A stretch of DNA of 64,000 nucleotides from an uncultured Pseudomonadales bacterium (GCA_964357975.1 CAYHNG010000001.1:47007-111006); one strand, 5' to 3'. Positions 15,369 to 49,629 are shown, counted from the first letter of the stretch. Notes: generated by a model from the letters alone, not told the origin. Made by a program: numbers and translations.

Positions 15369-15395
15369 CCAGCAGATACAAGGATATCAGGATGG

Positions 15396-16181
15396 TTATT
15401 TTGTAATTAAAATATAGAGACTGCTTATACCTAAGATGGAAAGCAGTGGATCCGGAATATGGAAAGCGGACTTTTTCAGATAATCATAAAGTGGGTCAGC
15501 TCTGTATTCATAGAAAAAATTTATTATATTGGGATTAATTAATGGTCTAGAGCTTTTTGAGAAGCCAATTTCTTTGCTAAGGTTTAGAATAGAGGCGTAG
15601 GAGTATCTTCCAATGTGGTGATAGACTGATACTTTCGAAAAAAAATTGCTCGCTTTTTCATCCTTTTTGATTCTAATTGATGAGGGACACACAAACAGGT
15701 AGGCTCCTCCTTGTTTGAGTAGTGAATAGACCTGTTCAAGATGCCTTTTAATGTCGTCTGGATGGATGTGCTCGACTACATGGTGCGAGAAGGCAAAGTC
15801 TACCTTAAGGCCTTTTATTTTGTCTCCGGGTAGTTCAAAGTCTTTGTTGTAGTGAATCTGTTCTGAATTGGTCGGAAAAACACCTTGAAGTTTGGGGACG
15901 GCCGAGAAGTAGACCTTTTTAAATTTTGATGAAAATAGTTTTATTTCAGAAATCGAAGGACTAAACAGGTATACAGACTTGTTCTGTGTCTTACCCGGAA
16001 AAAATGTGGGCAGTAGAGGATTGGAGACACCAGATTCTTTACCCAGATCCAGTTGAGCTACATCCCTATACCATCCCTTGTAATATTTTTCGGCGAGACG
16101 CATTCTAGACGGATAGTCTTTCAAAAGGTTCATTTCCTTATAAAATCCCTTTGCCTCGTTCAACACTTTCTGTTTATCCAT
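15396..16181 (-). CDS. Class I SAM-dependent methyltransferase
   Basis: KVDFAFSHHVVEHIHPDD...LLKQGGAYLFVCP (Methyltransf_11/23-like). Confidence 0.7.
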   Translation of the reverse strand: MDKQKVLNEAKGFYKEMNLLKDYPSRMRLAEKYYKGWYRDVAQLDLGKESGVSNPLLPTFFPGKTQNKSVYLFSPSISEIKLFSSKFKKVYFSAVPKLQGVFPTNSEQIHYNKDFELPGDKIKGLKVDFAFSHHVVEHIHPDDIKRHLEQVYSLLKQGGAYLFVCPSSIRIKKDEKASNFFSKVSVYHHIGRYSYASILNLSKEIGFSKSSRPLINPNIINFFYEYRADPLYDYLKKSAFHIPDPLLSILGISSLYILITK

Positions 16182-16191
16182 GATCAGCTGA

Positions 16192-17772
16192 TTATGCCGG
16201 GGCTTTCTTGTTACTAACAGGCGTATAGAGAATGGATTTGGTAGTATTCTTGAGAAAGCTTCTCATGAACAATTTAATCCCTGTATAAACTAACCTTACG
16301 GTATATCTAAGATCTTCGAAGCTATTAATTTTATTCAAAATTCTAGTTGGATTTAGATACGACATGGCTCTATAAGCAATGAAGCTCCGGTAAGCATATA
16401 GATGAAGTCTTTTGATCCTCTCTTTGTCGAAATTCATGGTCGGGGCTGCCTCTTCGTTGAGCATTTTAAACATCTCTTGATATTTCTTTTGATCAAATTT
16501 CATGGTTTTGAAAATATCATCAAAATTAAGCAGCCCTTCTTTCTTAAAGTCTTCATACACGGGTGATGTTGGCTGAGGGCTGAGAGTGAAAAAGGCAGCA
16601 AAGTCGGTTCCGGAATGTTTGGCGAATTTTATGGTGTCGAGCATCTGCTCTTTTGTTTCATAAGGGAAACCTAATATATGGGTACAGATGGTCCACATGC
16701 CAATTTTATTGGCATATTGAATCAACTCCTTCGCCTGAGATAGACTGTGTGTTTTATGAATATATTCTCGAATATCTTTATTCCCGGACTCGATGCCGAA
16801 GGTAATTCGGTAACAGCCGGCCTTTTTCATCTTTTTGATCAGCCGCTTATCAAGTGTCCAATGAGCAATACCGTTAGGAGTCGTCCACCTAATATCTAGT
16901 TTTCTTTTAATTATCTCGTCGCATATTTCACCCCATCTTTTTTTATTAACAGCGGCCGAGTCGTCCAAAAAGCCGATTTCATTTATTCCATAGGTATTGT
17001 GAAGCAGCTCAAGTTCGTCAACTGTTTTTACTGCGCTTTTGCCTCTCCAGGTCTTACCCCAGACAGCCCTCACGGTACAATAAACACAATCTCCGGGACA
17101 ACCGCGACTGGACATAATACCCAAAACGGGAGTCCTCATGGTATAAACACTACCCTTGGAAAGAGCGGCATATTTTTTGACATCGACCAACGAATAATCC
17201 AATGGAGGAAGTTTGTTCAGGTCCCAAATAAGCCGTCGCCTTTCATTTTCGATGATTTTCCTCCCCTTTTTGTACACAAGTCCTTTAACGTCAGAAACAT
17301 CTAGATTTTTCTCCAAAAGGTGATGACTCAATTCTAATAAAGTTTCTTCTCCTTCGCCAACTACAACATAATCAAACATTCCCATCCCCACAATCCATCT
17401 GGCAAATGAAGAGGCGTGATTTCCTCCAGTGACGATTTTTATCTTCGGATTTATCTTTTTGATGTAGGTCGCCAAGTTTACGATATCTTGAAAATGTCTG
17501 GAATACATACAAGACAATCCAATCAAGATAGGTTTCTTTTCAAGAATAATTTTTTTTATTTCGGCGTTTGATTTTCCGCATCTTTTCCGATTTCCGTCTT
17601 TGATCCAATCGTTAAAATCAAACATCCCCAGTTCTTCGATGCTACACGACACACCGTTGGCTTGGAGATAGGTACCAAGATTGAGTAAATTTAAGGGTAG
17701 ACTAGCCAGAATCAACTCCTGAGAGTCTTTATCAACTGTGTAGTATTGATTAAAAAGTAGAACGTCGGACAT
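16192..17772 (-). CDS. B12-binding-domain radical SAM enzyme (class B)
   Basis: N-terminal cobalamin-binding Rossmann region (KPILIGLSCMYSRHF...IVTGGNHAS), then the canonical CxxxCxxC motif SSRGCPGDCVYCT. Confidence 0.85.
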   Translation of the reverse strand: MSDVLLFNQYYTVDKDSQELILASLPLNLLNLGTYLQANGVSCSIEELGMFDFNDWIKDGNRKRCGKSNAEIKKIILEKKPILIGLSCMYSRHFQDIVNLATYIKKINPKIKIVTGGNHASSFARWIVGMGMFDYVVVGEGEETLLELSHHLLEKNLDVSDVKGLVYKKGRKIIENERRRLIWDLNKLPPLDYSLVDVKKYAALSKGSVYTMRTPVLGIMSSRGCPGDCVYCTVRAVWGKTWRGKSAVKTVDELELLHNTYGINEIGFLDDSAAVNKKRWGEICDEIIKRKLDIRWTTPNGIAHWTLDKRLIKKMKKAGCYRITFGIESGNKDIREYIHKTHSLSQAKELIQYANKIGMWTICTHILGFPYETKEQMLDTIKFAKHSGTDFAAFFTLSPQPTSPVYEDFKKEGLLNFDDIFKTMKFDQKKYQEMFKMLNEEAAPTMNFDKERIKRLHLYAYRSFIAYRAMSYLNPTRILNKINSFEDLRYTVRLVYTGIKLFMRSFLKNTTKSILYTPVSNKKAPA

Positions 17773-17834
17773 GAGATTGTTATTAATTGGTGTCTATTGA
17801 TAATAAGAGATTGTAACCCTTGAAGATGAATTTT

Positions 17835-19670
17835 TCATCCATGTTTAGAGAGCCAATAATTGACAGCGAAGATTCTTAACAATTTGAACTGATTGTTACA
17901 AGTGTTATCCATGTGCTCCCGATATAGTTTATTAACGTATTTTTGGTTGAACATATCGTTTTTCTGGTGGAGATAATGAGAAAAAGTTTCTTTTAATTCT
18001 TTCTTTATCCATTTATCCAAAGGCACACCGAACCCTTTTTTCGGTCGGTAAATAAAATCTCTCGAATAGAAACGCTCCGCTAACTTTTTGGTCAGATATT
18101 TAGTTATTCCGCCTTTTATTTTCCAATTTCCTCCAAGACCAAAGACAAACTCTGCCAGTTTGGTATCCAAAAAAGGGTTTCTCATTTCCACGGAGGCGGC
18201 CATGCAAGTCCTGTCACCTTTTACCAGGTACCAATCCGGCAATTGAAGTCGGCAATCCAAATAGAGGGCTTTATTTAATAAATCGTCTTGTTTAAATTGA
18301 CTCTCTGCTAGGTGCGCATCAGAAAATATTTCCATCATCGACAATTCTTTACTTAACAACTGCTCGGCTTCCTCCCTCAAGAAACTTCCGCTTCCAAAAA
18401 GAAATTGTCTTTCGGAAAATTCATATTGATATCCTGCCAATAATTTTTTTATATTTGGACTGACCGATGTCTTGCTCAACAATGAGGCGAGAGGCTTAAG
18501 AAACTTGGTTTTTTCGATCAAGTACTGTGCTTTGTATTTTTCGTAACCTCCGAAAATTTCATCCCCCCCATCACCGCTCAAAACCACAGTCATGTCTTTC
18601 TTAGCCTGCTTAGCTACAAAGAATAATGGTACAACGGCGGCATCAGCCAGAGGTTCATCAAGATAATCCATGATTTCCAAGAAAGTTGACTGAACATCTT
18701 TTCCGCTGAATTCACACAAATGATAATCCAAGTCGTATTTGTTGACCACTTGCTTTACGTACTTTGATTCATCAGCGCTTGGGGTGTCTTTGTAACTTAC
18801 AGTGTAGGTACAGATGTTTGAGGTGTGTTTGGCCATATAGTGGGCGATCAGACTACTGTCGATACCACCACTCAAGAACAAACCCAAAGGGACATCGGAC
18901 ATTAACCTTTTCCTAACCGAGCTATCCAGTAGTCTATCAACCTTATCGATTATCTCAACTTCATTCAGATCATCTACGATCGCTATTTGACCTAGATCCC
19001 AATATCTTTTTTTATTAATAAGCTTCCAGTTATCGATATCGAATTGAAGTGTGGTGGCGGCTTCTAGCTTGTAGACATTCTTATAAATAGTTTCCGGAGA
19101 AGGAATGTAGCCATAGAACACGAATTTTTCAATCGCAGAATAATTTAAAATTAATTTTCTTTTTATATTTGGGTTTGAAACTATTGCTTTTAGCTCTGAT
19201 GCAAAACAAAAAGAATTCTCATCTAAATAATAGTAAATAGGTTTTTTTCCAAATCTGTCTCTCCCGAGTGTAATTATATTTTTGTATTGGTCATATATTC
19301 CAAAAGCAAACATCCCGTCCAAATGTTTGACAATGTTCTGTCCGTATTCTTCATAGCCATGAACTATTGATTCAGTATCCGAGACGCTATTCCAAACGTG
19401 TTTTCTTTTTAACCCTTTTTTTACTTTTTGGAAGTTGTAGATTTCGCCATTAAAAACGATTGCTATCGAGCCATCTTCATTAAACATGGGTTGCTTGCCG
19501 TTCTCAGAGAGGTCAACTATCGATAATCTTGTTTGGCCGAGAGCGACGTTACCTGCCAGATACTTGCCTTGCTGGTCCGGTCCACGTCGAGATAATGTCG
19601 AAACCATTGTCTCGAAGAGACCTTTTTCAACTTTTTTTTGTTTTTGGATGAGGCCTACTATTCCACACAT
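17835..19670 (-). CDS. asnB: Asparagine synthetase B-type glutamine amidotransferase
   Basis: MCGIVGL N-terminal nucleophile, GEIYNF, the PP-loop SGGIDSS, and a full-length (611 aa) AsnB architecture. Confidence 0.9.
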   Translation of the reverse strand: MCGIVGLIQKQKKVEKGLFETMVSTLSRRGPDQQGKYLAGNVALGQTRLSIVDLSENGKQPMFNEDGSIAIVFNGEIYNFQKVKKGLKRKHVWNSVSDTESIVHGYEEYGQNIVKHLDGMFAFGIYDQYKNIITLGRDRFGKKPIYYYLDENSFCFASELKAIVSNPNIKRKLILNYSAIEKFVFYGYIPSPETIYKNVYKLEAATTLQFDIDNWKLINKKRYWDLGQIAIVDDLNEVEIIDKVDRLLDSSVRKRLMSDVPLGLFLSGGIDSSLIAHYMAKHTSNICTYTVSYKDTPSADESKYVKQVVNKYDLDYHLCEFSGKDVQSTFLEIMDYLDEPLADAAVVPLFFVAKQAKKDMTVVLSGDGGDEIFGGYEKYKAQYLIEKTKFLKPLASLLSKTSVSPNIKKLLAGYQYEFSERQFLFGSGSFLREEAEQLLSKELSMMEIFSDAHLAESQFKQDDLLNKALYLDCRLQLPDWYLVKGDRTCMAASVEMRNPFLDTKLAEFVFGLGGNWKIKGGITKYLTKKLAERFYSRDFIYRPKKGFGVPLDKWIKKELKETFSHYLHQKNDMFNQKYVNKLYREHMDNTCNNQFKLLRIFAVNYWLSKHG

Positions 19671-19677
19671 GGTACTT

Positions 19678-20595
19678 TCATCTTTTAATATACGACCAGT
19701 TCAGCTTTCCTGTTAACAGATATTCGATGCCGTCCGCAAACCCTAGCCAATATAACTTTATTAAGTCGAATCTAAATTCCCTCAAGACCAATAGGGAATA
19801 AGTGAGCGGCCAGAACCAGGAGAAAATGAGAGCATAAATTATTTTTTGGATGAAACTCCCATAACGAGCCACTATCACGGTTCTATTTCTCATGAGACAG
19901 TAGGCTTTTTGCTCGAACATTCCACCCATGCCTCTCGGCTTGAGATCATCATTTTTGTTCGTTTGGTGATAGGTGACCGCGCCGGACACTATTCCGCACC
20001 CATACCCCGATCTCTTGGCATGGAGGGCAAAGTCAGGTTCCGTAAAGGTCTGGACCAAACCTTCATCAAAGTATCCACACTTGGCAAATACCTCTGCTCT
20101 AATCATAAATACATTTGGGACTCCATCCGAATTTGACACCTTATGATTAGTTTCATTGATATGACCGGTTGTTTTTCCGGTAAACATATTGATTGTTTGA
20201 AAATCTAAATATTTTTTTCCGTTAGCGTAACTCATGGATGGTCCAATAATGCCATAGTCGGGATATTTTTCTGCAAAATAAATTAGTTTGGAGACCATCT
20301 TCGGATCAACAAGATTGTCATCGTCCACAAATAAAATATATTTGCCCCTTGCTTTCTTTGCACCAATATTTCGACTCTTAACCATCATCATTTGCTTTCT
20401 TTGATGTAGGACTGTAACGTGTGCTATATATGCCTTCAGGTCACCCGTGGTGATATCTTTGGTCTCATCAGTGGAACTGTCATCAACCACAATAAGCTCA
20501 GTATGTTTGGGAAGACTTGACATTTGCAAAGATTTTAGGCAGCCAATTAAATCCTGATAACGATTTCTGGTAGTGATAACAATACTCAAGATCAT
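19678..20595 (-). CDS. Glycosyltransferase family 2
   Basis: ILSIVITTRNR...LIVVDDSSTD...ILFVDDDN. The track start at 20625 is a TTG; the ATG at 20595 forms an ATGA overlap with the upstream gene. Confidence 0.85.
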   Translation of the reverse strand: MILSIVITTRNRYQDLIGCLKSLQMSSLPKHTELIVVDDSSTDETKDITTGDLKAYIAHVTVLHQRKQMMMVKSRNIGAKKARGKYILFVDDDNLVDPKMVSKLIYFAEKYPDYGIIGPSMSYANGKKYLDFQTINMFTGKTTGHINETNHKVSNSDGVPNVFMIRAEVFAKCGYFDEGLVQTFTEPDFALHAKRSGYGCGIVSGAVTYHQTNKNDDLKPRGMGGMFEQKAYCLMRNRTVIVARYGSFIQKIIYALIFSWFWPLTYSLLVLREFRFDLIKLYWLGFADGIEYLLTGKLNWSYIKR

Positions 20596-21566
20596 TTGAT
20601 AGCCGTTACCTTGATCATGGGCCAAAATAATCTACTATTAACCGCTAACCAATTAAATATTGGTCTGATCGGCTTTGGTAAGAACGCGAACTGTAAAGAG
20701 ATCTTAAAACGATCTACCCCGACTTCTTTGAAACCCGATTTCTTATGAATCCGGGTCAGTGTTGTGCCAAGAAATGACATCTCGTAACCAAATATCATGT
20801 GTCGGCCACGCAACAGTTTAATGTGAATAAATTCAGCCAACTGTCTTAATATCGGCATGTTCGGAATGTTTCCCCACAGTTGACGGTATGACAGAGAAGC
20901 AAGATTCAGATAAGGAACGGTGTTAATAGCGTATCCGCCGACCTTGAGGACTCTATACATTTCATCAACTGCCATTTTCGTATTCTTAAAATGTTCAATC
21001 ACTCCACCTCCATAGATTGCATCGATAGTATTGTCCTTTAGGGGAAGGTGAAGAATATTCCCTTGAATCAAGATAAAATTTTTGATTTTATTTTCTAATA
21101 ATAGCTGTTGGGCCACTAATAAGGCTGACATGCTTAAGTCTATGCCAATTATTAATCCAAATGACGAGGCAACTTCTTGTCCTAAAAAGAAATTTCCACA
21201 CCCGATCTCTAAATAAGTATTGGTTTTTTGTTTCTTTAAATCGAACGGGAACACACCCAGCACATCTTTCAGATAATTTTTTTTGTAGTAACTTAACTCT
21301 GCCTTATATTTCTTTTCATCCTTTTGTTCCTCATAGAAATCGTCCCACTTTTGGGAGGACAAGGTTAAATCATCACTGAGTGTTTCGGCAAAGGAAAGTA
21401 TGTTGCCAATCCTTTTCCCCAGTACAGATCTGCATGAACGGCACCGGATGATATTCTTGACTGTGATTTCAATATCTCCTTCACATCGCGGACAAAATAG
21501 GATACTTAATTTTTTATCTTGCATCTCTGAAAATTGAGTTGAGACCATTGTTGACAACAAGTTCAT
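20592..21566 (-). CDS. Class I SAM-dependent methyltransferase with an N-terminal Trm112-like zinc ribbon
   Basis: CPRCEG...CRSCRS ribbon at the N-terminus; LEIGCGNFFLG (motif I); IDAIYGGGVIEHF; VLKVGGY. The start may be an internal Met (21548 or 21524), which would reduce the 53-nt overlap with the FkbM gene. Confidence 0.75.
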   Translation of the reverse strand: MNLLSTMVSTQFSEMQDKKLSILFCPRCEGDIEITVKNIIRCRSCRSVLGKRIGNILSFAETLSDDLTLSSQKWDDFYEEQKDEKKYKAELSYYKKNYLKDVLGVFPFDLKKQKTNTYLEIGCGNFFLGQEVASSFGLIIGIDLSMSALLVAQQLLLENKIKNFILIQGNILHLPLKDNTIDAIYGGGVIEHFKNTKMAVDEMYRVLKVGGYAINTVPYLNLASLSYRQLWGNIPNMPILRQLAEFIHIKLLRGRHMIFGYEMSFLGTTLTRIHKKSGFKEVGVDRFKISLQFAFLPKPIRPIFNWLAVNSRLFWPMIKVTAIK

Positions 21567-22224
21567 ATTGATTGTTAATAAGCAGTCTCAAAATTTGTGA
21601 TTCACCACCGGTATTGTTCTGGGTGACATTTTCAATACAGATTACTTTTGGTCTGAATTTTTTCCAGTCGTTACTTTGGAGAATAATAAGGTCGTAACCT
21701 TCTGTATCGACCGATAGGAAGTCGATTTTGTTTGCTTTATATTTCCTAAACAAATCTTTCATGGGTATTGTGTCAATATTCTTGATACTTTCAATGTCGA
21801 AGCCCTGTTTGACATAGTTGTCGGCTTCTTTTTTGGAGAAAGTGGAAAGCGTGTCGGTGTAGAAATTATAAAACGAAAGCTTGCCTTGTGAGCCACTAAT
21901 ACCACAGTATATATTTGTGTCTCTAGGACGAACCCTGTTAAGCTTCATATATTTGCGCATGTTTGGCTCAACATTTATCCCCCTCCATCCCTTTTGGTAG
22001 AACCTGAAGGTATTATTAAACCGAACAGGGTCGTTTGCTCCAATATCTACATAGAAACCCTTTTTTTTACCCCCTATAACCTTATCTATCAAGAGGTCTT
22101 CCTGTCTTTGACTGTATGACCTAAGAAATAATCTGTAATAGATGACGTATTTTACTTCACTATACAAATACTGAAGTGATTTCCACAGACCATAGTGATA
22201 TATTTTTTTAATTGTGTTTTTCAT
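21514..22224 (-). CDS. FkbM-family methyltransferase
   Basis: GFYVDIGANDP...FLSVDTEGYDLIIL matches the FkbM domain signature. Confidence 0.8.
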   Translation of the reverse strand: MKNTIKKIYHYGLWKSLQYLYSEVKYVIYYRLFLRSYSQRQEDLLIDKVIGGKKKGFYVDIGANDPVRFNNTFRFYQKGWRGINVEPNMRKYMKLNRVRPRDTNIYCGISGSQGKLSFYNFYTDTLSTFSKKEADNYVKQGFDIESIKNIDTIPMKDLFRKYKANKIDFLSVDTEGYDLIILQSNDWKKFRPKVICIENVTQNNTGGESQILRLLINNQYELVVNNGLNSIFRDAR

Positions 22225-23362
22225 TTAGAGCTTGCGAGAATATCTGTTTCCAGGAAAGAGATTTGGCGTAAGTAGTTGTGTTTTTGCTTAAAATTTCCAG
22301 TTTTGTTTTGTCTTTTAAAATATCAACTATATCTTTACTTAGGTCGTTTCTTATTATAGCCCCACAACCGTTGTGGACTATCTCATTTGCATTGTATGGA
22401 ACATCCGATACGAGCACCGGTAAACCGCAGGCGAGATAGAGCTTTAGCTTGGCTGGATCGGCGAAATATGTAAAGGAGAGGTGGCCTTTATCGTCGTACT
22501 TTTCGTATGGCGCGATTGCTAGAGAGTATTGTGGTAGTTGTTTCTCGATATCCCGGTGATCCTTAATATACCCTTTGAACTCTATGAATTTGGATACATT
22601 TAGATTGGCGGCTAGTTCTTTCAAGGTATCTAAGTAATCTCCCCCGCCAAAAACTACGAACTTAAAGTTAGGGATATTTTTGGTTATGCTTGGGATTTCT
22701 TTTATGACATCTTGAATTCCCTGCTTTTTGGTAATATGTCCCATGAAGACGAGTGAGTTAGGAATTTTTTTAACACTCGGATTGAGGCGTTCTGTCCAAA
22801 CACCGACTGGCACTACTTTCTGATGACCACCGGTGAAGCCAAAATATTTTTTTCTGCCCCACTCCATGCGAGGTGAAAGGTTCCAGGTTTCATCGGCGTG
22901 TCTGACACAGAACTGATCTATTTTATGGTAGATGTAGTTTAGAACTTTGTTCTCGAAACGGTAGGGGTTGTAATCAATGACATAATAGATTACTTTCTTG
23001 ACGTGTCCCAGCTTTTTGAGAATAATTCCAGCTAAAGCATTGAGGTTGTCACTACCCACAAACAAATCCCATTGCTCGCCACTCTGCAAAACCCATTTAA
23101 CCGTGAGCCAGACGTCTTTGAAATAGGAAATTATTGCCGCTGTTTTCTTAATTTGGGAATAATCTTCAACTATCAGTTTGCCTTTAATGTATTTTTCAAA
23201 ACCTGACCCCTTGAGTTTCTTGTCAAAAAACAATGGGTGACCGATAAACAAAAGATTCTCTATAGTTTCTCCGTTTAGATAGTCCTTCAAGTCCTGAGCC
23301 GGGCCTGTTGTGTAAACATGCGTGGCTATAACTGCGGAAGATAAGGGAAGTTTTCTGTTCAC
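22208..23362 (-). CDS. Glycosyltransferase, GT-B fold (GT4-like)
   Basis: C-terminal LVFMGHITKKQG...FKFVVFGGG...GLPVLVSD. GTG start. Confidence 0.7.
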   Translation of the reverse strand: MNRKLPLSSAVIATHVYTTGPAQDLKDYLNGETIENLLFIGHPLFFDKKLKGSGFEKYIKGKLIVEDYSQIKKTAAIISYFKDVWLTVKWVLQSGEQWDLFVGSDNLNALAGIILKKLGHVKKVIYYVIDYNPYRFENKVLNYIYHKIDQFCVRHADETWNLSPRMEWGRKKYFGFTGGHQKVVPVGVWTERLNPSVKKIPNSLVFMGHITKKQGIQDVIKEIPSITKNIPNFKFVVFGGGDYLDTLKELAANLNVSKFIEFKGYIKDHRDIEKQLPQYSLAIAPYEKYDDKGHLSFTYFADPAKLKLYLACGLPVLVSDVPYNANEIVHNGCGAIIRNDLSKDIVDILKDKTKLEILSKNTTTYAKSLSWKQIFSQALNEKHN

Positions 23363-23374
23363 AGTTGTTGGGTA

Positions 23375-24310
23375 TTAGTTCTTGAGGTTGTGAAGAAACC
23401 AGTCGTATTCTATACCGATTCCCTTTTCTAGTTCCATTTGAGGTTTCCAACCAAGCGAGAGAAGTTTAGAAACATCTAACAATTTTTTGGGGGTACCGTC
23501 CGGTTTGGTTGAGTCCCAAACTATTTTCCCTTTGAAACCGACGATTTTTTTGATAATTTGGGCAAGCTCTTTAATTTTGAGATCCACTCCAGTGCCAATG
23601 TTGATGATTTCTGAGTTATCATAATGCTCCATAAGATAGACACAAGCGTCTGCCATATCATCGACGTAAAGAAATTCTCGATAGACGTTTCCCGTTCCCC
23701 ACAATACAACCTCTTTTTTATGCCCAATTTTGGCATCATGGAATTTACGGATTAAGGCAGGAAGGACGTGAGAACTATTTAAGTCAAAGTTGTCATGTGG
23801 TCCGTAAAGATTCGTAGGCATGACAGAAATGAAATTAGTTCCATATTGCTCGTTGTAGCTTTGGCACATCTTGATACCGGCAATCTTGGAAATAGCATAA
23901 GCGTCATTAGTCTCTTCTAATGGCCCGGTAAGAAGATAAGATTCTTTGATTGGCTGTTTGGCTAGCTTAGGATAAATGCAAGAGCTCCCCAGAAACATTA
24001 GTTTCTTCACTTTATTCTTCCATGAAGCATGGATAACATTGTTTTGGATCTGAAGATTATCATAGATAAAATCAGCTTTCCTTGTTTTGTTGGCCATAAT
24101 TCCACCAACTAAAGCCGCAGCCAAAAAAACATATTCCGGTTTTTCTTTTTCAAAAAAATTTTCGACTTGTACCGAACTTTCTAAATCCAGTTCAGATCTT
24201 TTCCTAGTGATGATATTGGTATAACCATTTTTTATCAAAGACCGAACGATAGCGGTCCCAACTAAACCACTTTGACCTCCGGCAACAAAAATCTTGGCGT
24301 CTTTCTTCAT
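23375..24310 (-). CDS. fcl: GDP-L-fucose synthase (GDP-4-keto-6-deoxymannose 3,5-epimerase/4-reductase)
   Basis: [28 protein letters not shown], and an overall SDR-extended layout typical of Fcl/WcaG. Start taken at the ATG at 24310 ([14 protein letters not shown] overlap) rather than the track start at 24322. Confidence 0.9.
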
Positions 24311-25335
24311 TATTGTTTCCATTTTTCACGGCTGGATTCCGCTGGAGCAATCTTACCTCTAATCCAACCATAAATATATATAAATAGGGTAGCATAGCAG
24401 GCAATGGGGTGGAAGAGCCATGCCGAATCTGGTTTTCTGATATATCCTATGACCGTCTGGTAAAGTATGGGGAAAATTAGAATACATGAAAAGACGAACT
24501 TGAGGATACCCGTCATAAATGATCCTTCCCAATCCACATCTCTATTCTTCTTGGCTTTGTGAAAGGACATATCGTTAATGCGGCGGAACTGTTTACGGAA
24601 GAACTTGGCGGCGTCGTTTTCGACGAAAGTGTGAATAATGCCGGTATCTACTTTGGCAACTTTGATTTCACCTTCTGAGCGGATTAGTTTAAGAAGAATA
24701 TCGATGTCAAATAAATAATCTGACTGTTTGGTGGCTTTTTGGAGATATTCTTTTCGAAAAATGGTGCCATTAGCACCGATGGTGGGTATGGGCTGGTGAT
24801 TGAGGGTTATTTCCAGATAGCCATTTTTCTGTACTTCAGGAAATTTGAGATCTGTCCAACGATTTGTAATATACGAAAAACGATCGTAGTTACCAATGAA
24901 GAGACAAATGGGATCGTTCATACCCAATAAGGCGAAATAGCGCGTAAGTAATGGATCTTGCCGGCGGTAGGTATAGCGAATTGGTTCGGAAACAATAATG
25001 CTCTTGTTGGTAAAAGGTTTCACCATATCGGAGAGCCAATGACTATTGGGGAGAATGTTGTCTGAATCGATAAGAGCAATAAGGTCACCTTTAGCAGCTT
25101 TCACAGCTACGGCTTTGCCGGACTCGCCGGTTCTTAATTTGTTTGGGATAACGGTCGCTCCGTACTTTTTAGCTAAACTAACAGTATTGTCCGTCGACCC
25201 TCCGTCCCCAATTAGAATTTCAATTTTTGTTTTCGGATATTTTTGAATAGAGATGGACTTTAGGCATTTTTCCAGGACTAAACCTGAGTTCAAGGTGGGG
25301 ATGACAATGGAGATGGAGGGATGTGATGGTTTCAA
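24310..25335 (-). CDS. Glycosyltransferase family 2
   Basis: [11 protein letters not shown]...GDGGSTD...IDSDN, with a C-terminal TM anchor. TTG start at 25335. Confidence 0.85.
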
Positions 25336-25364
25336 AGTTATTGGTTGTTGGTTTTTCCCAGATA

Positions 25365-25389
25365 GATCCCCGCCTTCGCGAGGATGACA
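25365..25389. repeat. Hairpin repeat copy R1 (GATCCCCGCCTTCGCGAGGATGACA), intergenic between the radical SAM and GT2 genes
   Basis: Identical 25-mer to 44896-44920. Forms a UUCG/CUUC-loop hairpin that is more stable on the minus-strand RNA (G-U in place of C-A). Confidence 0.8.
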
Positions 25390-25403
25390 TAGTAGATTAC
25401 TTG

Positions 25404-27035
25404 TTAGTCGCTCAATACATCTCCGTGTTGGCCGAGTTGTTTGGGCGAAAAGTCCATCATGTGTCCGAGAAAGCGCCAGCCGGCCATGAAGAGGAATTTG
25501 ATATCATCCAGATGTCTGATCTCGGTGATTTTTCTTAACATGAATTTGGGACTAAGAAAAGATTTGTAGAGGTCTTGGGTTAGTTCCAACACCTGTTTCT
25601 CGGTAAGTGAAGATTTCATTACCGGCTTTCTCATGTCGTAATCATCGTAGTCTTCTGACAAAAGCCAACCCTTTTCTTTACACTCTTTCCATAGCGGGGT
25701 GCCGGGATAGGGAATCACCACAGTGGCTTGCAAGGTGTCGACATAACCTTTTTCAAAACATTTCTTGGCCAGATCGACCGTGTTCCTGGCATCCTCGTAA
25801 GTTTCCCATGGGTAGCCCATCATAATAGTGAGGTGCGGGTCTAGTCCGCCCTTCTTGGCCATGCGGACACCTTCTTCGATTTGCTCTACCTTAAGCCCTT
25901 TATCGAGATGATCTAAGGTATATTGATTGGCGGACTCCATACCATAAAGGATGAAACGGAAGTTGGCTTTGCCCATTAAATCGTAATGCTCTTGCTTGAG
26001 AGCGTTGAGACGCATATTGCACCCATAGACGACTTTCTTACTGTAGCCGGACTCGATCATCATGTTACAAAAGTCAGTCAGGGGTTTGCCGATCATAAAA
26101 GTACCGGCGTCATCAAAAATTTCCTTAACATGATACTTGTCCACGACATATTTGACTTCATCAAAAAGACGCTGTGGAGTAAACCTGCGGTATGACCCAA
26201 CCGGGTTGATGGTGTGATCCCAAACACAGAAAGTGCAACGATTCCACCAACAGTCACGACCGGAGTACATATAGGTAGCGGGGGTGTACTTGTAGTTGCC
26301 GTTGTAGACCGAATAAAGTTCCCACTTAGTTAAATCACGGTCGACAAAAGGCAACTCGTTTAGATCGTGGGCGATGCTGGGTTTGCCGGAGTTGGCATAA
26401 ACCGCCTTACCCTTTCGCTTGATTGTTTCCACCGGTTTTTGTTTGATCCGCTTGTCACCCATGCGCCACCAAACACCCGCCTCTAAAGGCGTGGGTGGGG
26501 TGAGATCCCTCGACTGCGCTCGGGATGACGAAGTAAGGTGGTCGAGCAAGCTCACAATGACGAAGTCATAATCTCCACCGGTGATCAGGTAGTCGGCTTT
26601 GCTGTGATCCATCATTTCTTCCGGAGTAAAGGTAATGTGATCCCCTACCCAAACCAAAAGGAGTTTAGGAAGTTCTTTTTTGAGAAGCTTGGTGATTTCC
26701 CAATGCTTCTTGATGATCGGAGACTTGGTCTCCACCATCAAAACATCGGGTTTAAATTGTTTTAATTCTTTCAACCACTGCTCAAAAGTCTGCTCCTCCG
26801 CTATACCATCCATCCATTTGACCTTGTAGCCATGAGCAGCTGCATTGGAGGCGGCATAAGCCGGAACCATAGGATAAATGTAGGTCTTGGCGTTGAAGTA
26901 CTGGAACTGACGGTTTTGAGACAGCAGCATGACACCTTTGTCGGAAGGCATGGGAGGGTAGCCTACAACAAGCCTTAAGGGCTTGTTGGTGTTTAGTGCT
27001 AAGGGCTTGGTAACTTTTTTGGTTTTTTTTAACAT
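25404..27035 (-). CDS. B12-binding-domain radical SAM enzyme with a non-canonical Cx4CxxC cluster motif
   Basis: N-terminal Rossmann-like B12 domain. The cluster motif YSGRDCWWNRCTFCV has C-x4-C-x2-C spacing. Carries an in-frame copy of the hairpin repeat, encoding SSSRAQSRDLT in the interdomain linker. Confidence 0.75.
   Translation of the reverse strand: MLKKTKKVTKPLALNTNKPLRLVVGYPPMPSDKGVMLLSQNRQFQYFNAKTYIYPMVPAYAASNAAAHGYKVKWMDGIAEEQTFEQWLKELKQFKPDVLMVETKSPIIKKHWEITKLLKKELPKLLLVWVGDHITFTPEEMMDHSKADYLITGGDYDFVIVSLLDHLTSSSRAQSRDLTPPTPLEAGVWWRMGDKRIKQKPVETIKRKGKAVYANSGKPSIAHDLNELPFVDRDLTKWELYSVYNGNYKYTPATYMYSGRDCWWNRCTFCVWDHTINPVGSYRRFTPQRLFDEVKYVVDKYHVKEIFDDAGTFMIGKPLTDFCNMMIESGYSKKVVYGCNMRLNALKQEHYDLMGKANFRFILYGMESANQYTLDHLDKGLKVEQIEEGVRMAKKGGLDPHLTIMMGYPWETYEDARNTVDLAKKCFEKGYVDTLQATVVIPYPGTPLWKECKEKGWLLSEDYDDYDMRKPVMKSSLTEKQVLELTQDLYKSFLSPKFMLRKITEIRHLDDIKFLFMAGWRFLGHMMDFSPKQLGQHGDVLSD
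26500..26533. repeat. Hairpin repeat copy R2 (GTGAGATccctcgactgcgctcgggATGACGAAG), in-frame inside the radical SAM CDS
   Basis: GTGAGAT and ATGACGA termini shared with R3, R4 and R6. The minus strand encodes SSSRAQSRDLT. Confidence 0.7.
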
Positions 27036-27054
27036 TTATTTTTATGTTAGTAGT

Positions 27055-27088
27055 GTGAGATTCCTCCACTTCGGTCGGAATGACAAGG
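27055..27088. repeat. Hairpin repeat copy R3 (GTGAGATtcctccacttcggtcggaATGACAAGG), intergenic between the ferredoxin and radical SAM genes
   Basis: C(UUCG)G tetraloop hairpin flanked by GTGAGAT and ATGACA; 22 of 27 internal positions match R6. Confidence 0.75.
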
Positions 27089-27089
27089 T

Positions 27090-27356
27090 TTATGGAAAAA
27101 TTTGTTTACCGGAAGAGTCTCTAATAAATATAGCAAGAATGGGACAAGATCTGGCGGCTTCTTTCACTTTCTCCAATGAGTCCCCGTCCGGATCGAGAAT
27201 AATCGCTTTGCCGTCTGTATCTCGCAGAAAAAAGGTTAAGGGTGCAACAATGGAACAAGGACCGGCAGAGATGCACTTGTTTAGATCAACTGTAATAATA
27301 TACCCATCTTTTCGGACTGCTTCGCTTTTATCTTCAGTAGTGTTAACTTGGACCAT
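27090..27356 (-). CDS. Small ferredoxin-like protein (3-Cys Fer4_13/15 type)
   Basis: 88 aa; C-x-x-A-x-x-C ... C-P pattern (KCISAGPCSIVAP ... SCPILAI). TAATG-coupled to the upstream GT2 gene. Confidence 0.55.
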   Translation of the reverse strand: MVQVNTTEDKSEAVRKDGYIITVDLNKCISAGPCSIVAPLTFFLRDTDGKAIILDPDGDSLEKVKEAARSCPILAIFIRDSSGKQIFP

Positions 27357-28399
27357 TATTGTATTAGTTTATCAGTAAACAAGAATCCTTGAAGGAAACG
27401 GACCCCGTACCAAAGATGAGTGATGAAGATAATGGGGATGGAAAGAAGAGTCTGAACGAGGATAGATATCAGATCTCGGTTCTCAGATCTCAGTTTCTTG
27501 TGTTGAACAATAGTGTTGAGGATCCAGAGGGAGTTGAGGGAGAGAATAAGAAAATAGAGAGCAAAAGAGTAGATACCAACACTACGGAGGAGAGTTATTG
27601 GTTGGAGAAATGACAATGGGAGGGAGAGTATCAAAAATAAAAAACCGAAAAGGAGGAGTGTGGGGAGGAAGTAGATGGGCCTGAGGGAAGTTTCCGGGAG
27701 AATGCGAGCAAAAAAACCTCGATGAAGACCGAAGTTACCGTTTTGTCGAAGGTGAGGAAGTAGGATGGGACGACGGTGATGATAGACGATCGACTTCGGT
27801 TCGTAAATAATTTTTTTATTTAGTTTGTGAGTAAGGTCTAAACAAAGTTTGGTATCCTCGCCCGGCCAAAAGTTGGAGTCATAGCCACCAACCTTCATGA
27901 AATCTGTTTTGCGAACAGCCAGATTCATGGAAGGATAATCGTCAACGTACTGTTTTTTACCAGGAAGAAAGCGGTAGGTATATGGACCGGCACCGATGGG
28001 AGACGCCGACGCCCACCCGGAAGCCTCCTCTCGCCAGCTAACTACCTGAGGAGTCACGCCCGGTCCGCCAACCCCAGCAATCTCGGCTTTTTGAAAATGA
28101 GGGACGAGACTGGCTAGCCAACTCTTGCTAGGAAATGCATCGTCATCGATGAAAGCCAAAATCTCTCCTTTGGCCATCTTAGCTCCGGCATCTCGTTTCT
28201 CCGCCGGCCCGACATAATGGCCATATGATTTTTGGCGAAGTTTAGGATAATCCAGATCTACATGGTAGTCGCAGACCAAAATAATTTCGAAGTTTTTGTA
28301 GGTTTGTTTCTCGATGGAGTCAAGACACTCGATCAGATACGGGTTCTTTTTTTTGTAATCGATGACGATGACGGAGACTAGGGGAGGTTTACGGTTCAT
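27356..28399 (-). CDS. Glycosyltransferase family 2 with a C-terminal membrane anchor
   Basis: LVSVIVIDYKKKN...ILAFIDDDAFP, then about four TM helices. Confidence 0.8.
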   Translation of the reverse strand: MNRKPPLVSVIVIDYKKKNPYLIECLDSIEKQTYKNFEIILVCDYHVDLDYPKLRQKSYGHYVGPAEKRDAGAKMAKGEILAFIDDDAFPSKSWLASLVPHFQKAEIAGVGGPGVTPQVVSWREEASGWASASPIGAGPYTYRFLPGKKQYVDDYPSMNLAVRKTDFMKVGGYDSNFWPGEDTKLCLDLTHKLNKKIIYEPKSIVYHHRRPILLPHLRQNGNFGLHRGFFARILPETSLRPIYFLPTLLLFGFLFLILSLPLSFLQPITLLRSVGIYSFALYFLILSLNSLWILNTIVQHKKLRSENRDLISILVQTLLSIPIIFITHLWYGVRFLQGFLFTDKLIQ

Positions 28400-28462
28400 G
28401 GTTATTTGACAAATGTTGATTGTAACTGTATTATCTATTTAGTTAATCTCGCGGATGGGTGT

Positions 28463-29961: not shown

Positions 29962-29970
29962 GTTGATGGA

Positions 29971-30018: not shown

Positions 30019-30019
30019 G

Positions 30020-31270: not shown

Positions 31271-31300
31271 GGCTAATATAGTTTACGCTATTATTAATGC

Positions 31301-49605: not shown

Positions 49606-49629
49606 GATAGTCAATTAGAATTATATGCG

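What the first reader, a model, noticed from the sequence alone, without database searches (positions are those of the whole stretch)
15396..28399. Modification operon with two B12-radical-SAM enzymes (one with Cx4CxxC), a ferredoxin, AsnB, FkbM and three methyltransferases
- One minus-strand gene string with short gaps and overlaps carries a class-I methyltransferase, a B12-radical-SAM enzyme (canonical CPGDCVYC), AsnB, GT2, a zinc-ribbon methyltransferase, FkbM, GT4, Fcl, GT2, a second B12-radical-SAM enzyme (CWWNRCTFC, giving Cx4Cx2C spacing), a 3-Cys ferredoxin immediately downstream, and GT2.
- B12-radical-SAM enzymes in glycan loci usually C-methylate sugars at unactivated carbons.
- Together with the FkbM O-methyltransferase, the other methyltransferases and an AsnB-type amidotransferase, this predicts a heavily methylated and possibly amidated fucose-containing glycan.
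- The ferredoxin placed next to the non-canonical radical SAM enzyme is a plausible dedicated reductant.
- metK with its own riboswitch sits 7 kb away and would supply SAM.
Basis: partly seen in the sequence, partly recalled or inferred. Interest (0 to 1): 0.6.

Follow-up and report, generated by a model that had tools for sequence, protein, structure and literature searches.

The report
Conserved glycan core with radical-SAM enzyme
This stretch of a Collierbacteria (candidate phyla radiation) genome is a cell-surface sugar-chain operon: an ancient core of two glycosyltransferases, a small ferredoxin and an uncharacterised radical-SAM enzyme, also found in archaea, is joined to a strain-specific set of sugar-decorating genes, and what that enzyme does chemically is unknown.

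Summary
The genes are present as described. The CWWNRCTFC (Cx4Cx2C) run is the real cluster motif. It aligns to the canonical loop with one inserted residue. All 120 nearest homologue clusters carry it, and none has a CxxxCxxC. The 3-Cys ferredoxin (C-x2-A-x2-C…CP) lies directly upstream in 26 of 31 Patescibacteria loci.

The string is not one coherent modification operon. It has a deeply conserved core: flippase, GT2, membrane GT2, ferredoxin, radical-SAM enzyme 2 (rSAM2) and GT2. The core minus the ferredoxin recurs at about 50% identity in Methanolobus, Nitrososphaerota and Dehalococcoidia. Attached to it is a variable tailoring block (Fcl, GT4, FkbM, methyltransferases, AsnB, rSAM1), seen in only one other genome.

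Cx4Cx2C is already known in this enzyme class (OxsB, GenK, GenD1). Here the loop varies from Cx4 to Cx16 among orthologues.

The nearest curated and solved relatives of rSAM2 are HpnJ, BchE and AprD4. None of these is a methylase, so C-methylation is only one of three live options, alongside ring contraction and dehydration. Cobalamin binding is unproven.

This is an uncharacterised subfamily of a known kind and is moderately interesting.

The parts
30020..31270 (-). Multi-pass membrane protein, Wzx/flippase-like (Polysacc_synt_3). It is the first gene of the conserved core.
   Evidence: Pfam PF13440 at 24.5 bits against a cut-off of 23. About ten or more hydrophobic segments. Syntenic upstream of GT2d in 24 loci.
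29101..29961 (-). GT2d: a soluble GT2 resembling polyprenyl-phosphate hexosyltransferases (PpgS, AglJ and DPM-synthase types). Core gene.
   Evidence: Pfam Glycos_transf_2 at 69 bits. Weak NCBIfam hits to PpgS (49.6 bits) and AglJ (34.8 bits). Present upstream of GT2c in 30 loci, including 8 of the 9 archaeal and Dehalococcoidia loci.
28463..29104 (-). DUF3800 gene inserted between GT2d and GT2c. Not part of the conserved core.
   Evidence: Pfam PF12686 at 45.6 bits. Not detected between GT2d and GT2c in any of the related loci.
27356..28399 (-). GT2c: an integral-membrane GT2 (MftF- and AglG-like) and the invariant upstream partner of rSAM2.
   Evidence: Pfam GT2. NCBIfam MftF at 94 bits and AglG at 72.5 bits, both below their cut-offs. 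Hydrophobic segments at residues 238-331. Directly upstream of the rSAM2 orthologue in 38 of 40 loci, overlapping it in the archaeal loci.
27090..27356 (-). Single-cluster ferredoxin with three Cys (C28-x2-A31-x2-C34 ... C71-P), of the [3Fe-4S] type. Its start overlaps the GT2c stop by 1 nt.
   Evidence: Pfam Fer4_13 at 36.4 bits and Fer4_15 at 35.2 bits. The best solved relative is the Thermotoga maritima 4Fe-4S ferredoxin, whose CIGCGVC aligns to CISAGPC here. Conserved with the same C-x2-A-x2-C...CP pattern in 26 of 31 Patescibacteria loci and absent from all 9 archaeal and Dehalococcoidia loci.
25404..27035 (-). rSAM2: a radical SAM enzyme with an N-terminal Rossmann (B12-binding-like) domain. 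It is HpnJ-related and uncharacterised.
   Evidence: Pfam. NCBIfam best hit is HpnJ at 161 bits against a cut-off of 577. AF2 model with pLDDT 92. Foldseek top hits, in order: AprD4, MgmA/QCMT, TsrM, OxsB, CysS, TokK. 4431 homologues were found at the E-value cut-off used (1e-5), and the 120 best clusters listed are at least 62% identical.
26226..26252 (-). Codons for the cluster loop C262-W-W-N-R-C267-T-F-C270 (Cx4Cx2C).
   Evidence: Read from the translation. Aligned to TokK C206/C210/C213 with one inserted residue, and flanked by R260 and W272, which align to TokK R204 and W215 (PMC9204698). Conserved in every Patescibacteria orthologue. Cx4 in Methanolobus and Dehalococcoidia L033, Cx7 in Nitrososphaerota, Cx16 in L038.
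24310..25335 (-). GT2b: a GT2 with a C-terminal hydrophobic segment, frequently the gene after rSAM2.
   Evidence: Pfam, hydropathy. Present downstream of rSAM2 in 17 loci.
23375..24322 (-). Fcl-like GDP-4-keto-6-deoxymannose epimerase/reductase. First gene of the variable tailoring block.
   Evidence: NF047922 at 484.3 bits against a cut-off of 500. Orthologue above 60% identity only in L002, L017 and L040. No Gmd was found among the window ORFs scanned.
22208..23362 (-). GT4 glycosyltransferase (variable block).
   Evidence: Pfam Glycos_transf_1 at 67.5 bits. 86% orthologue only in L002.
21514..22224 (-). FkbM-family methyltransferase (variable block).
   Evidence: PF05050 at 82.9 bits and TIGR01444 at 40.4 bits against a cut-off of 37.7.
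20592..21566 (-). Class-I SAM methyltransferase with an N-terminal CxxC...CxxC zinc ribbon (variable block).
   Evidence: Methyltransf_11 at 63 bits. CPRC...CRSC read from the translation.
19678..20625 (-). GT2a glycosyltransferase (variable block).
   Evidence: Pfam GT2 at 94.8 bits.
17835..19670 (-). AsnB-type glutamine amidotransferase, with the N-terminal Cys2 nucleophile present (variable block).
   Evidence: TIGR01536 at 439.8 bits against a cut-off of 267. The closest model is the XrtA/PEP-CTERM EPS amidotransferase at 462 bits.
16192..17772 (-). rSAM1: a B12-domain radical SAM enzyme with the canonical CPGDCVYC (variable block).
   Evidence: Radical_SAM at 86 bits and B12-binding at 57.8 bits. 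NCBIfam hits spread over BchE, P-methyltransferases and others, none above its cut-off. Homologues at 50-61% identity in Omnitrophota and Parcubacteria glycan clusters, next to class-I methyltransferases.
15396..16181 (-). Weak class-I methyltransferase-like protein, the last gene of the string.
   Evidence: Only sub-threshold Pfam hits (Methyltransf_23 at 23.6 bits against 27) and no NCBIfam hit.
34139..35242 (-). metK (SAM synthetase), outside the operon.
   Evidence: All three S-AdoMet_synt domains detected.
35241..35338 (-). SAM-IV-like riboswitch candidate in the metK leader.
   Evidence: RF00634 at 33.8 bits against a gathering score of 38, E = 1e-4, full-length match to the model. Not reported at the gathering threshold.

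Best explanation
The region belongs to a glycosylation island of at least 60 kb in a Candidatus Collierbacteria (Microgenomates, CPR) genome, and it has two layers.

Layer 1 is an ancient core: flippase, GT2d, GT2c, ferredoxin, rSAM2 and GT2b. I infer the following mechanism. GT2d loads a sugar onto a polyprenyl phosphate, and the membrane-embedded GT2c extends it. The soluble enzyme rSAM2 then uses a 5'-deoxyadenosyl radical to tailor that membrane-anchored sugar. The radical is generated at a [4Fe-4S] cluster held by C262, C267 and C270. After this step further glycosyltransferases, the flippase and the many GT-C (PMT_2) enzymes of the island finish and transfer the glycan.

The family-specific cluster loop is CWW-x(2-14)-C-x-F-C, and Cx4 is its shortest form. 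The small [3Fe-4S]-type ferredoxin is a Patescibacteria-specific addition. It most likely supplies the electron for SAM cleavage in these reduced genomes.

Layer 2 is a strain-variable tailoring block: Fcl-like enzyme, GT4, FkbM, zinc-ribbon methyltransferase, GT2, AsnB, rSAM1 and a methyltransferase-like protein. It decorates the glycan with 6-deoxyhexose, methyl and possibly amide groups.

Shown: gene content, the motif and its conservation, the synteny and the fold class. Inferred: the lipid-linked substrate, the electron-donor role of the ferredoxin, and the reaction type. The reaction of rSAM2 is unresolved among C-methylation, HpnJ-like ring rearrangement and AprD4-like dehydration. Its nearest relatives lean away from methylation.
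For: - Domain calls for every gene.
- The rest of the window is GT2, GT4, PMT_2, GT87 and YfhO genes.
- Closest genomes are Collierbacteria, with rSAM2 at 88-92% identity. The exact proteins are deposited as Collierbacteria hypothetical protein, Radical SAM domain protein and Ferredoxin.
- GT2c lies directly upstream of the rSAM2 orthologue in 38 of 40 loci. GT2d-GT2c-rSAM2 is kept in Methanolobus (51% identity), six Nitrososphaerota loci (about 50%) and Dehalococcoidia (36-48%).
- The variable block is shared only with L002.
- The ferredoxin is present with an identical Cys pattern in 26 of 31 Patescibacteria loci, and in none of the 9 archaeal and Dehalococcoidia loci.
- GT2c has C-terminal membrane segments, and rSAM2 has none.
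- The three motif Cys are at least 90% conserved across a 60-sequence alignment, and the loop length varies.
- HpnJ is the best curated family for 57 of 60 family members. The profile-to-PDB search and Foldseek both rank AprD4 first, then QCMT, TsrM, OxsB and TokK.
- R260 and W272 align with the cobalamin-contacting R204 and W215 of TokK (PMC9204698).
Against: - No experiment or characterised close homologue exists. All family matches are far below their cut-offs: HpnJ 161 against 577, AglG 72 against 440, AglJ 35 against 325.
- The substrate could be a soluble NDP-sugar rather than a lipid-linked one.
- A [3Fe-4S] ferredoxin usually has a higher potential than radical SAM clusters need, so its role as reductant is plausible but untested.
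- Five Patescibacteria loci and all archaeal loci lack the ferredoxin.
- Cobalamin binding is unproven. The Pfam B12-binding score sits at the threshold, the best structural match (AprD4) binds no cobalamin, and, to my knowledge, CPR bacteria do not make B12.
Confidence: 0.6

Rival explanations
1. First reader's reading. Both B12-radical SAM enzymes are cobalamin-dependent sugar C-methyltransferases of the GenK, GenD1 or Fom3 type. Together with FkbM and the class-I methyltransferases they give a heavily methylated, amidated, fucose-containing glycan.
For: - Most characterised class-B enzymes are methylases (PMC12931638).
- GenK, GenD1 and Sis14 are sugar C-methylases that carry Cx4Cx2C.
- The second-best solved relative is the glutamine C-methylase QCMT/MgmA.
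- R260 and W272 match the cobalamin contacts of TokK.
- rSAM1 homologues sit beside, or are fused to, class-I methyltransferases in other glycan clusters.
Against: - For rSAM2 the best curated families are HpnJ and BchE. Methylase models score 20-67 bits against cut-offs of 280-700.
- The best solved structure is the non-methylating, cobalamin-free AprD4.
- rSAM2 belongs to the conserved core, not to the methyltransferase-rich variable block.
- Fcl scores just under its cut-off and no Gmd was found among the window ORFs scanned.
Confidence: 0.3
2. rSAM2 is a functional analogue of HpnJ (and of Cds and OxsB). It abstracts a sugar-ring hydrogen and contracts or rearranges the hexose that the adjacent GT2 has attached to a lipid. 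The result is a carbocyclic (cyclitol-type) or otherwise rearranged unit in a conserved envelope glycoconjugate.
For: - HpnJ is the top curated family for the window protein (161 bits, next best 116) and for 57 of 60 relatives.
- The GT2-then-radical-SAM gene order resembles the pathway order in hopanoid biosynthesis, where the glycosyltransferase HpnI acts before HpnJ, as described in PMC13459092.
- OxsB, the one structurally characterised ring-contracting class-B enzyme, also has Cx4Cx2C.
Against: - The HpnJ score is far below its cut-off, and the HpnJ chemistry itself has never been reconstituted.
- No HpnK-like deacetylase or hopanoid genes are nearby.
- GT2c does not hit the HpnI model.
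- The more distant relatives, which gave the best HpnJ-model score in the 60-sequence scan (E = 5.9e-141), carry the canonical Cx3 loop, so the Cx4+ clade is a separate branch.
Confidence: 0.2
3. rSAM2 is a cobalamin-independent AprD4-like 1,2-diol dehydratase. Together with one of the frequently neighbouring SDR enzymes, which would act as an AprD3-like reductase, it deoxygenates a sugar.
For: - AprD4 is the best hit in both the profile-to-PDB search (E = 1.5e-37) and Foldseek (TM-score normalised to target length, 0.76).
- An SDR/epimerase-family gene lies within a few genes of rSAM2 in 23 loci, including the archaeal ones.
- This mechanism would remove the need for cobalamin in CPR cells.
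Against: - The NCBIfam AprD4 model scores only 38 bits against a cut-off of 500.
- AprD4 has a Cx3Cx3C loop and lacks the R and W positions that rSAM2 shares with TokK.
- SDR genes are ubiquitous in glycan loci, so the association is non-specific.
Confidence: 0.12
4. The ferredoxin is a general housekeeping electron carrier that merely happens to lie in this operon. It is not the dedicated reductant of rSAM2.
For: - Five Patescibacteria orthologous loci and all archaeal and Dehalococcoidia loci work without an adjacent ferredoxin.
- One locus (L018) has a second copy elsewhere.
- Three-Cys [3Fe-4S] ferredoxins are not typical low-potential donors (own knowledge).
Against: - The position immediately upstream of rSAM2 is kept across Collierbacteria, WWE3, Roizmanbacteria and Moranbacteria despite only 36-46% ferredoxin identity, and the ferredoxin start overlaps the GT2c stop.
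Confidence: 0.25

Closest known systems
[quoted passage not shown]
   Same: It is the best curated family match (161 bits). It has the same two-domain architecture and similar length. In its pathway it acts after a glycosyltransferase (HpnI) that puts a sugar on a lipid, which resembles the GT2c-then-rSAM2 gene order here.
   Different: The score is far below the 577-bit cut-off. There are no hopanoid genes, no HpnK and no HpnI-type GT2. The cluster loop here is Cx4 to Cx16. The host lineages (CPR, archaea, Dehalococcoidia) are not known to make hopanoids (own knowledge, not checked here).
AprD4 (PDB 6FD2), a radical SAM 1,2-diol dehydratase of apramycin biosynthesis
   Same: It is the closest solved structure by both sequence profile and fold. 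It acts on a sugar ring and has a Rossmann-like N-terminal domain plus a radical SAM barrel.
   Different: Sequence identity is 14%. AprD4 has a Cx3Cx3C loop and binds no cobalamin. It belongs to an actinomycete antibiotic pathway, not a conserved envelope-glycan core.
OxsB, GenK and GenD1: class-B radical SAM enzymes with a Cx4Cx2C cluster motif
   Same: They share the one-residue expansion of the Cys loop and the B12-domain architecture. GenK and GenD1 C-methylate sugars, and OxsB contracts a sugar ring.
   Different: Similarity is only remote (OxsB profile E = 1.6e-20). They are secondary-metabolite enzymes of actinomycetes and Bacillus. Here the loop length is not fixed at four but varies among orthologues.
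Haloarchaeal Agl pathway (AglJ then AglG on dolichyl phosphate, flippase AglR, methyltransferase AglP)
   Same: A DPM-synthase-like GT2 is followed by a second GT2 (AglG is the second-best curated hit of GT2c), with a flippase and tailoring methyltransferases. The core is shared with archaea.
   Different: All scores are far below the family cut-offs. No AglB/STT3 oligosaccharyltransferase was identified. To my knowledge the Agl pathways contain no radical SAM enzyme.
Single-cluster ferredoxins of the Thermotoga maritima, Desulfovibrio gigas FdII and Pyrococcus furiosus type
   Same: Same fold family (Fer4_13/Fer4_15), about 60 core residues, and a C-x2-X-x2-C...CP ligand pattern.
   Different: The second ligand position is Ala in every orthologue. 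This predicts a [3Fe-4S] cluster rather than [4Fe-4S]. There is also a 20-residue N-terminal extension.

Membership tests
Radical SAM superfamily (PF04055) | Domain score above the Pfam gathering threshold | tested here: met
   rSAM2 scores 60.9 bits and rSAM1 86 bits, against a cut-off of 29.5.
Radical SAM superfamily (PF04055) | Three Cys in the cluster loop, homologous to CX3CX2C | tested here: met
   C262, C267 and C270 align to TokK C206, C210 and C213 with one inserted residue. They are at least 90% conserved in the 60-sequence alignment. No CX3CX2C occurs elsewhere in the protein or in any of the 120 homologue clusters.
Radical SAM superfamily (PF04055) | Partial TIM-barrel fold | tested here: met
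   The AF2 model has pLDDT 92. Foldseek probability is 1.0 to AprD4, QCMT, TsrM, OxsB, CysS, TokK and MiaB.
Class B (cobalamin-dependent) radical SAM enzymes | N-terminal Rossmann-type B12-binding domain | tested here: met
   PF02310 scores 32.6 bits against a cut-off of 32.1 for rSAM2 (marginal) and 57.8 bits for rSAM1. Full-length structural alignment to TsrM, OxsB, TokK and QCMT.
Class B (cobalamin-dependent) radical SAM enzymes | Actual cobalamin binding | not testable with these tools
   Only indirect evidence is available. R260 and W272 align to the cobalamin-contacting R204 and W215 of TokK (PMC9204698). However, the nearest structure, AprD4, has the same domain and binds no cobalamin.
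HpnJ (TIGR03471) | Score at or above the curated cut-off of 577.6 bits | tested here: not met
   161 bits. The best E-value among 60 relatives is 5.9e-141; the bit score was not shown.
HpnJ (TIGR03471) | Hopanoid gene neighbourhood (shc, hpnH, hpnI, hpnK) | tested here: not met
   None were found in the window or in the 44 loci. The neighbours are GT2, SDR, flippase and GT-C genes.
Cobalamin-dependent sugar or RiPP C-methyltransferases (KedN5, rSAM_ocin_1, HpnR and PhpK models) | Score above the curated cut-off of any methylase model | tested here: not met
   For rSAM2: KedN5 19.5 against 700, rSAM_ocin_1 51 against 282, HpnR 65 against 650, PhpK 67 against 600. No GenK, GenD1 or Fom3 model or sequence was available for a direct test.
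AprD4 family diol dehydratase (NF033070) | Score above 500 bits and a CX3CX3C loop | tested here: not met
   38.3 bits. The loop here is CX4CX2C, whereas AprD4 has CPYPCRFYC.
Single-cluster ferredoxin (Fer4_13 / Fer4_15), [3Fe-4S] type | Domain above the gathering score, with C-x2-X-x2-C...C-P and a non-Cys at the second ligand position | tested here: met
   36.4 bits against 24.5 and 35.2 bits against 22.4. CISAGPC...SCP aligns to CIGCGVC...SCP of the T. maritima ferredoxin. Ala is conserved in all 26 orthologues. The cluster type itself is inferred.
GDP-L-fucose synthase Fcl (NF047922) | Score at or above 500 bits, and a GDP-mannose 4,6-dehydratase partner | tested here: not met
   484.3 bits, narrowly below the cut-off. 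No Gmd was found among the window ORFs scanned, though it may lie elsewhere in the genome.
Asparagine synthase, glutamine-hydrolysing (TIGR01536) | Score at or above 267 bits and an N-terminal Cys nucleophile | tested here: met
   439.8 bits. The sequence starts MCGIVG.
SAM-IV riboswitch (RF00634) | Score at or above the gathering score of 38 bits | tested here: not met
   33.8 bits, with a full-length match directly upstream of metK. No hit at the gathering threshold.

The most novel reading that the evidence does not exclude
The CWW-x(n)-C-x-F-C radical SAM family, always paired with a membrane GT2, performs an HpnJ/Cds-type radical rearrangement. This could be a ring contraction to a cyclitol or another carbon-skeleton change. 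It would act on a polyprenyl-phosphate- or lipid-linked hexose and produce a previously unrecognised envelope glycoconjugate. That glycoconjugate would be shared by CPR bacteria, Nitrososphaerota, some methanogens and Dehalococcoidia. In CPR a dedicated [3Fe-4S] ferredoxin would serve as the electron donor.
Probability: 0.15. Interest if true: 0.75.

Novelty: new member of a known kind. Interest (0 to 1): 0.4.

Why it matters
CPR bacteria have tiny genomes, yet this one spends over 60 kb on surface glycosylation. A radical SAM enzyme kept at over 60% identity across Microgenomates and Parcubacteria, and at about 50% identity in archaea, is probably important for the envelope. Its fixed pairing with a membrane glycosyltransferase points the same way, as does the occasional presence of inteins in homologues. 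No member of the family has been studied.

Identifying its product would define a conserved envelope component of organisms that mostly cannot be cultured. It would also show whether these cells depend on scavenged cobalamin, and it would add a reaction to the B12-domain radical SAM repertoire.

The practical lesson for annotation is that "B12-radical SAM in a glycan locus" does not by itself mean a C-methylase.

Tried and rejected
- Canonical motif elsewhere: I looked for a CxxxCxxC elsewhere in rSAM2 and its homologues and found none.
- Rfam at the gathering threshold on the whole window gave no hits. The SAM-IV-like element appears only in an E-value search.
- Context look-ups for two representative homologues (P0121, P0129) returned only 2-4 kb contigs and were uninformative.
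- The promoter and terminator scan of 15000-31600 was not above the shuffled expectation and was not used.
- The AFDB50 fold search is not installed.
- Literature searches for Patescibacteria B12-domain radical SAM enzymes found no description of this family. Literature searches on calditol synthase (Cds) gave no sequence to compare.
- GT2c is not HpnI-like: it gave no hit to the HpnI model.
- The window methyltransferase at 15396 is not the orthologue of the methyltransferases flanking rSAM1 homologues elsewhere: tblastn gave no hit at 1e-4.
- ORF 26983-27378 on the plus strand was rejected as antisense noise over the ferredoxin gene.

Full report
OBSERVATION

ORF listing and translation show an uninterrupted minus-strand gene string. 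It runs from 31270 down to 15396, with gaps of 68 nt or less or overlaps. It ends convergently against a plus-strand cupin gene.

- a weak methyltransferase-like protein (15396-16181, sub-threshold only);
- rSAM1 (16192-17772; Radical_SAM 86 bits, B12-binding 57.8 bits, CPGDCVYC);
- AsnB (17835-19670);
- GT2 (19678-20625);
- a zinc-ribbon Methyltransf_11 protein (20592-21566);
- FkbM (21514-22224);
- GT4 (22208-23362);
- an Fcl-like enzyme (23375-24322; 484 bits against a cut-off of 500);
- GT2 (24310-25335);
- rSAM2 (25404-27035; Radical_SAM 60.9 bits, B12-binding 32.6 bits against a cut-off of 32.1, CWWNRCTFC at residues 262-270);
- a Fer4_13/Fer4_15 ferredoxin (27090-27356);
- GT2 (27356-28399).

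The string continues upstream with a DUF3800 gene, another GT2 (29101-29961) and a flippase-like protein (30020-31270).

The rest of the 64-kb window consists of GT2 and GT4 genes, at least ten PMT_2-type GT-C paralogues, GT87 and YfhO. The finding therefore sits inside a very large glycosylation island.

The exact proteins are deposited from Candidatus Collierbacteria metagenome-assembled genomes. Their names are hypothetical protein, Radical SAM domain protein and Ferredoxin. The closest genomic loci are Collierbacteria, at 88-92% identity.

(i) The motif is genuine.
- Of 4431 homologues found, the 120 best clusters (at least 62% identity) all carry C-x4-C-x2-C. 115 of them carry exactly CWWNRCTFC, and none has a C-x3-C-x2-C anywhere.
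- The phmmer alignment to TokK places C262, C267 and C270 on TokK C206, C210 and C213 with one inserted residue.
- These three Cys are at least 90% conserved in a 60-sequence alignment that reaches down to 25% identity.

(ii) The ferredoxin is conserved.
- tblastn finds it immediately upstream of the rSAM2 orthologue in 26 of the 31 Patescibacteria-type loci that have upstream sequence. These span Collierbacteria, WWE3, Roizmanbacteria and Moranbacteria.
- It always shows the pattern C-x2-A-x2-C...S-C-P.
- Against the Thermotoga maritima 4Fe-4S ferredoxin the alignment reads CISAGPC against CIGCGVC. The second ligand is replaced by Ala, so a [3Fe-4S] cluster is predicted.

ANATOMY: A CORE PLUS A VARIABLE BLOCK

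I mapped all window genes onto 44 related genome loci and independently clustered all ORFs of those loci. Both give the same picture.
- GT2c (27356-28399) lies directly upstream of the rSAM2 orthologue in 38 of 40 loci.
- GT2d (29101-29961) precedes it in 30 loci, the flippase in 24, and GT2b follows in 17.
- GT2d-GT2c-rSAM2 is also kept in nine loci outside the Patescibacteria. In the archaeal ones GT2c and rSAM2 overlap. These are Methanolobus (51% identity), six Nitrososphaerota or uncultured-archaeon loci (about 50%) and two Dehalococcoidia loci (48% and 36%). None of the nine has the ferredoxin.
- By contrast, Fcl, GT4, FkbM, the zinc-ribbon methyltransferase, GT2a and AsnB have orthologues in the same arrangement in only one locus, L002. 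That locus ends inside AsnB.
- The DUF3800 gene between GT2d and GT2c was not detected at that position in any related locus.
- GT2c has several C-terminal hydrophobic segments. rSAM2 and the ferredoxin have none.
- GT2d weakly resembles polyprenyl-phosphate hexosyltransferases (PpgS, AglJ). GT2c weakly resembles MftF and the dolichyl-phosphate-glucose glucuronosyltransferase AglG.

THE CYS LOOP

Cx4Cx2C is not new for this class.
- It is described for the crystal structure of OxsB (PMC9204698).
- It is described for GenD1, GenK and Sis14 (PMC4340712).
- RadicalSAM.org lists a Cx4Cx2C megacluster (PMC9477430).

What is specific here is a CWW-x(n)-C-[TS]-F-C signature whose first spacer varies among syntenic orthologues.
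- It is Cx4 in Patescibacteria, Methanolobus (CWYHKCRFC) and Dehalococcoidia L033.
- It is Cx7 in Nitrososphaerota (CWWRNGGGCTFC) and Cx16 in L038.
- An exhaustive representative search shows the same range, Cx4 to Cx18, in the clade above roughly 250 bits.
- More distant relatives, mostly below 200 bits, revert to the canonical CPYxCxFC.
- A few full-length relatives have lost all three Cys.

WHAT KIND OF ENZYME IS rSAM2?

- The best curated family is HpnJ, at 161 bits against a cut-off of 577. BchE follows at 116 bits, and methylase models score 20-67 bits.
- HpnJ is also the best family for 57 of 60 relatives.
- A profile search of the PDB ranks AprD4 first (E = 1.5e-37). Next come the glutamine C-methylase QCMT (9CCB, identified through PMC12931638), OxsB, TsrM and TokK.
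- An AF2 model (pLDDT 92.2, pTM 0.91) gives the same order by Foldseek. All hits are at 13-16% identity.

The fold is therefore that of the B12-domain radical SAM class. The nearest named relatives are a proposed ring-contracting enzyme (HpnJ), an oxidative cyclase (BchE) and a cobalamin-free sugar diol dehydratase (AprD4), not methylases.

R260 and W272 align with TokK R204 and W215, which contact cobalamin or stack between the cofactors (PMC9204698). This is weak support for cobalamin binding. AprD4 shows that the domain alone does not prove it.

rSAM1

rSAM1 is a different matter.
- It has a canonical motif and a solid B12-binding score. It hits many class-B models without preference.
- Its homologues, at 50-61% identity, lie in glycan clusters of Omnitrophota and Parcubacteria.
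- There they sit directly beside class-I methyltransferases. In one locus they sit next to a methyltransferase-B12-radical-SAM fusion protein.

A C-methylase role is reasonable for rSAM1, but it is untested.

MECHANISM PROPOSED (INFERRED)

1. GT2d loads a hexose on polyprenyl phosphate.
2. The membrane GT2c extends it.
3. rSAM2 tailors the membrane-anchored sugar by hydrogen abstraction. It is reduced by the co-encoded ferredoxin in Patescibacteria and by general ferredoxins in archaea and Dehalococcoidia.
4. GT2b and the variable enzymes add and decorate further sugars: 6-deoxyhexose through the Fcl-like enzyme, O- or C-methyl groups, and a possible uronamide through AsnB.
5. The flippase and the GT-C enzymes export and transfer the glycan.

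I put the overall architecture at about 0.6 confidence. My rough split for the reaction of rSAM2 is:
- C-methylation, about 0.3;
- HpnJ-like rearrangement, about 0.2;
- AprD4-like dehydration, about 0.12;
- the remainder, other or unknown.

PERIPHERAL CLAIMS

- metK is at 34139-35242. Its leader (35241-35338) gives a full-length SAM-IV match at 33.8 bits, below the gathering score of 38. It is a probable but sub-threshold riboswitch, and SAM supply is a generic need.
- A fucose-containing glycan rests on the Fcl-like gene alone. No Gmd was found among the window ORFs scanned.

VERDICT

The interpretation needs three corrections.
- The unusual pair belongs to an ancient cross-domain core module, not to the methylation block.
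- The Cx4 spacing has precedent in the class.
- A C-methylase function for rSAM2 is not the best-supported reading.

This is an uncharacterised subfamily of a known enzyme class in a known kind of locus. It is of moderate interest, with some upside if the chemistry proves to be a sugar rearrangement.

Noticed in passing
Homologues P0122, P0123, P0124, P0125 and P0127 of window 25404-27035: Several rSAM2 homologues of 665-972 aa carry Hint/intein-splicing domains, most with a LAGLIDADG homing endonuclease. The insertion is at or just after the cluster-binding Cys loop. Inteins usually target highly conserved, important genes.
   Followed up: partly
Relatives P0136, P0142, P0145, P0151 and P0159: Full-length relatives (33-38% identity) have lost all three cluster-binding Cys. 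They may be catalytically dead paralogues.
   Followed up: no
window 28463-29104 (-): A DUF3800 gene is wedged between GT2d and GT2c. It was not detected at that position in any of the related loci, where the two GT2 genes usually abut. It looks like a recent insertion.
   Followed up: partly
window 5674-7140, 32714-34117, 35365-36495, 40377-45432 and 53327-54877 (probably also 45416-51312): There are at least seven confirmed PMT_2-type GT-C paralogues, many in tandem, plus GT87 and YfhO. The whole window is a glycosylation island, which is remarkable for a reduced CPR genome.
   Followed up: partly
window 35241-35338 (-): A SAM-IV-like aptamer lies in the metK leader, at 33.8 bits against a gathering score of 38. 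The core (P1, P2 and the CAACC...GGUGC region) is well matched and the 3' hairpin is divergent. It may be a CPR variant that Rfam thresholds miss.
   Followed up: partly
L049/L050 1732-4038 and 4038-5117; L047 6226-8596: rSAM1 homologues in Parcubacteria and Omnitrophota glycan clusters are flanked by class-I methyltransferases. One locus also encodes a 768-aa fusion of methyltransferase, B12-binding and radical SAM domains, and a SPASM radical SAM protein.
   Followed up: partly
L021 7723-8220, L017 7622-8125 and ten other loci: A small membrane protein of about 165 aa with DxDH...H motifs (DUF457-like metal hydrolase appearance) directly follows rSAM2 in Parcubacteria and WWE3 loci. It is absent from the window.
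   Followed up: no
L001 1605-2003 and L008: A four-helix-bundle protein resembling the 23S rRNA intervening-sequence protein is inserted between the ferredoxin and rSAM2 in two Collierbacteria-like loci.
   Followed up: no
L001, L002, L005, L009-L012 and others (record titles): Several TPA_asm MAGs are titled 'uncultured Pseudomonadales', 'Gammaproteobacteria' or 'Bdellovibrionales'. They nonetheless carry this Patescibacteria module at 61-90% identity to the window, so the taxonomic labels look unreliable.
   Followed up: no
window 26983-27378 (+): A 131-aa ORF lies antisense to the ferredoxin and to the start of rSAM2. It is a mechanical ORF with no support.
   Followed up: yes
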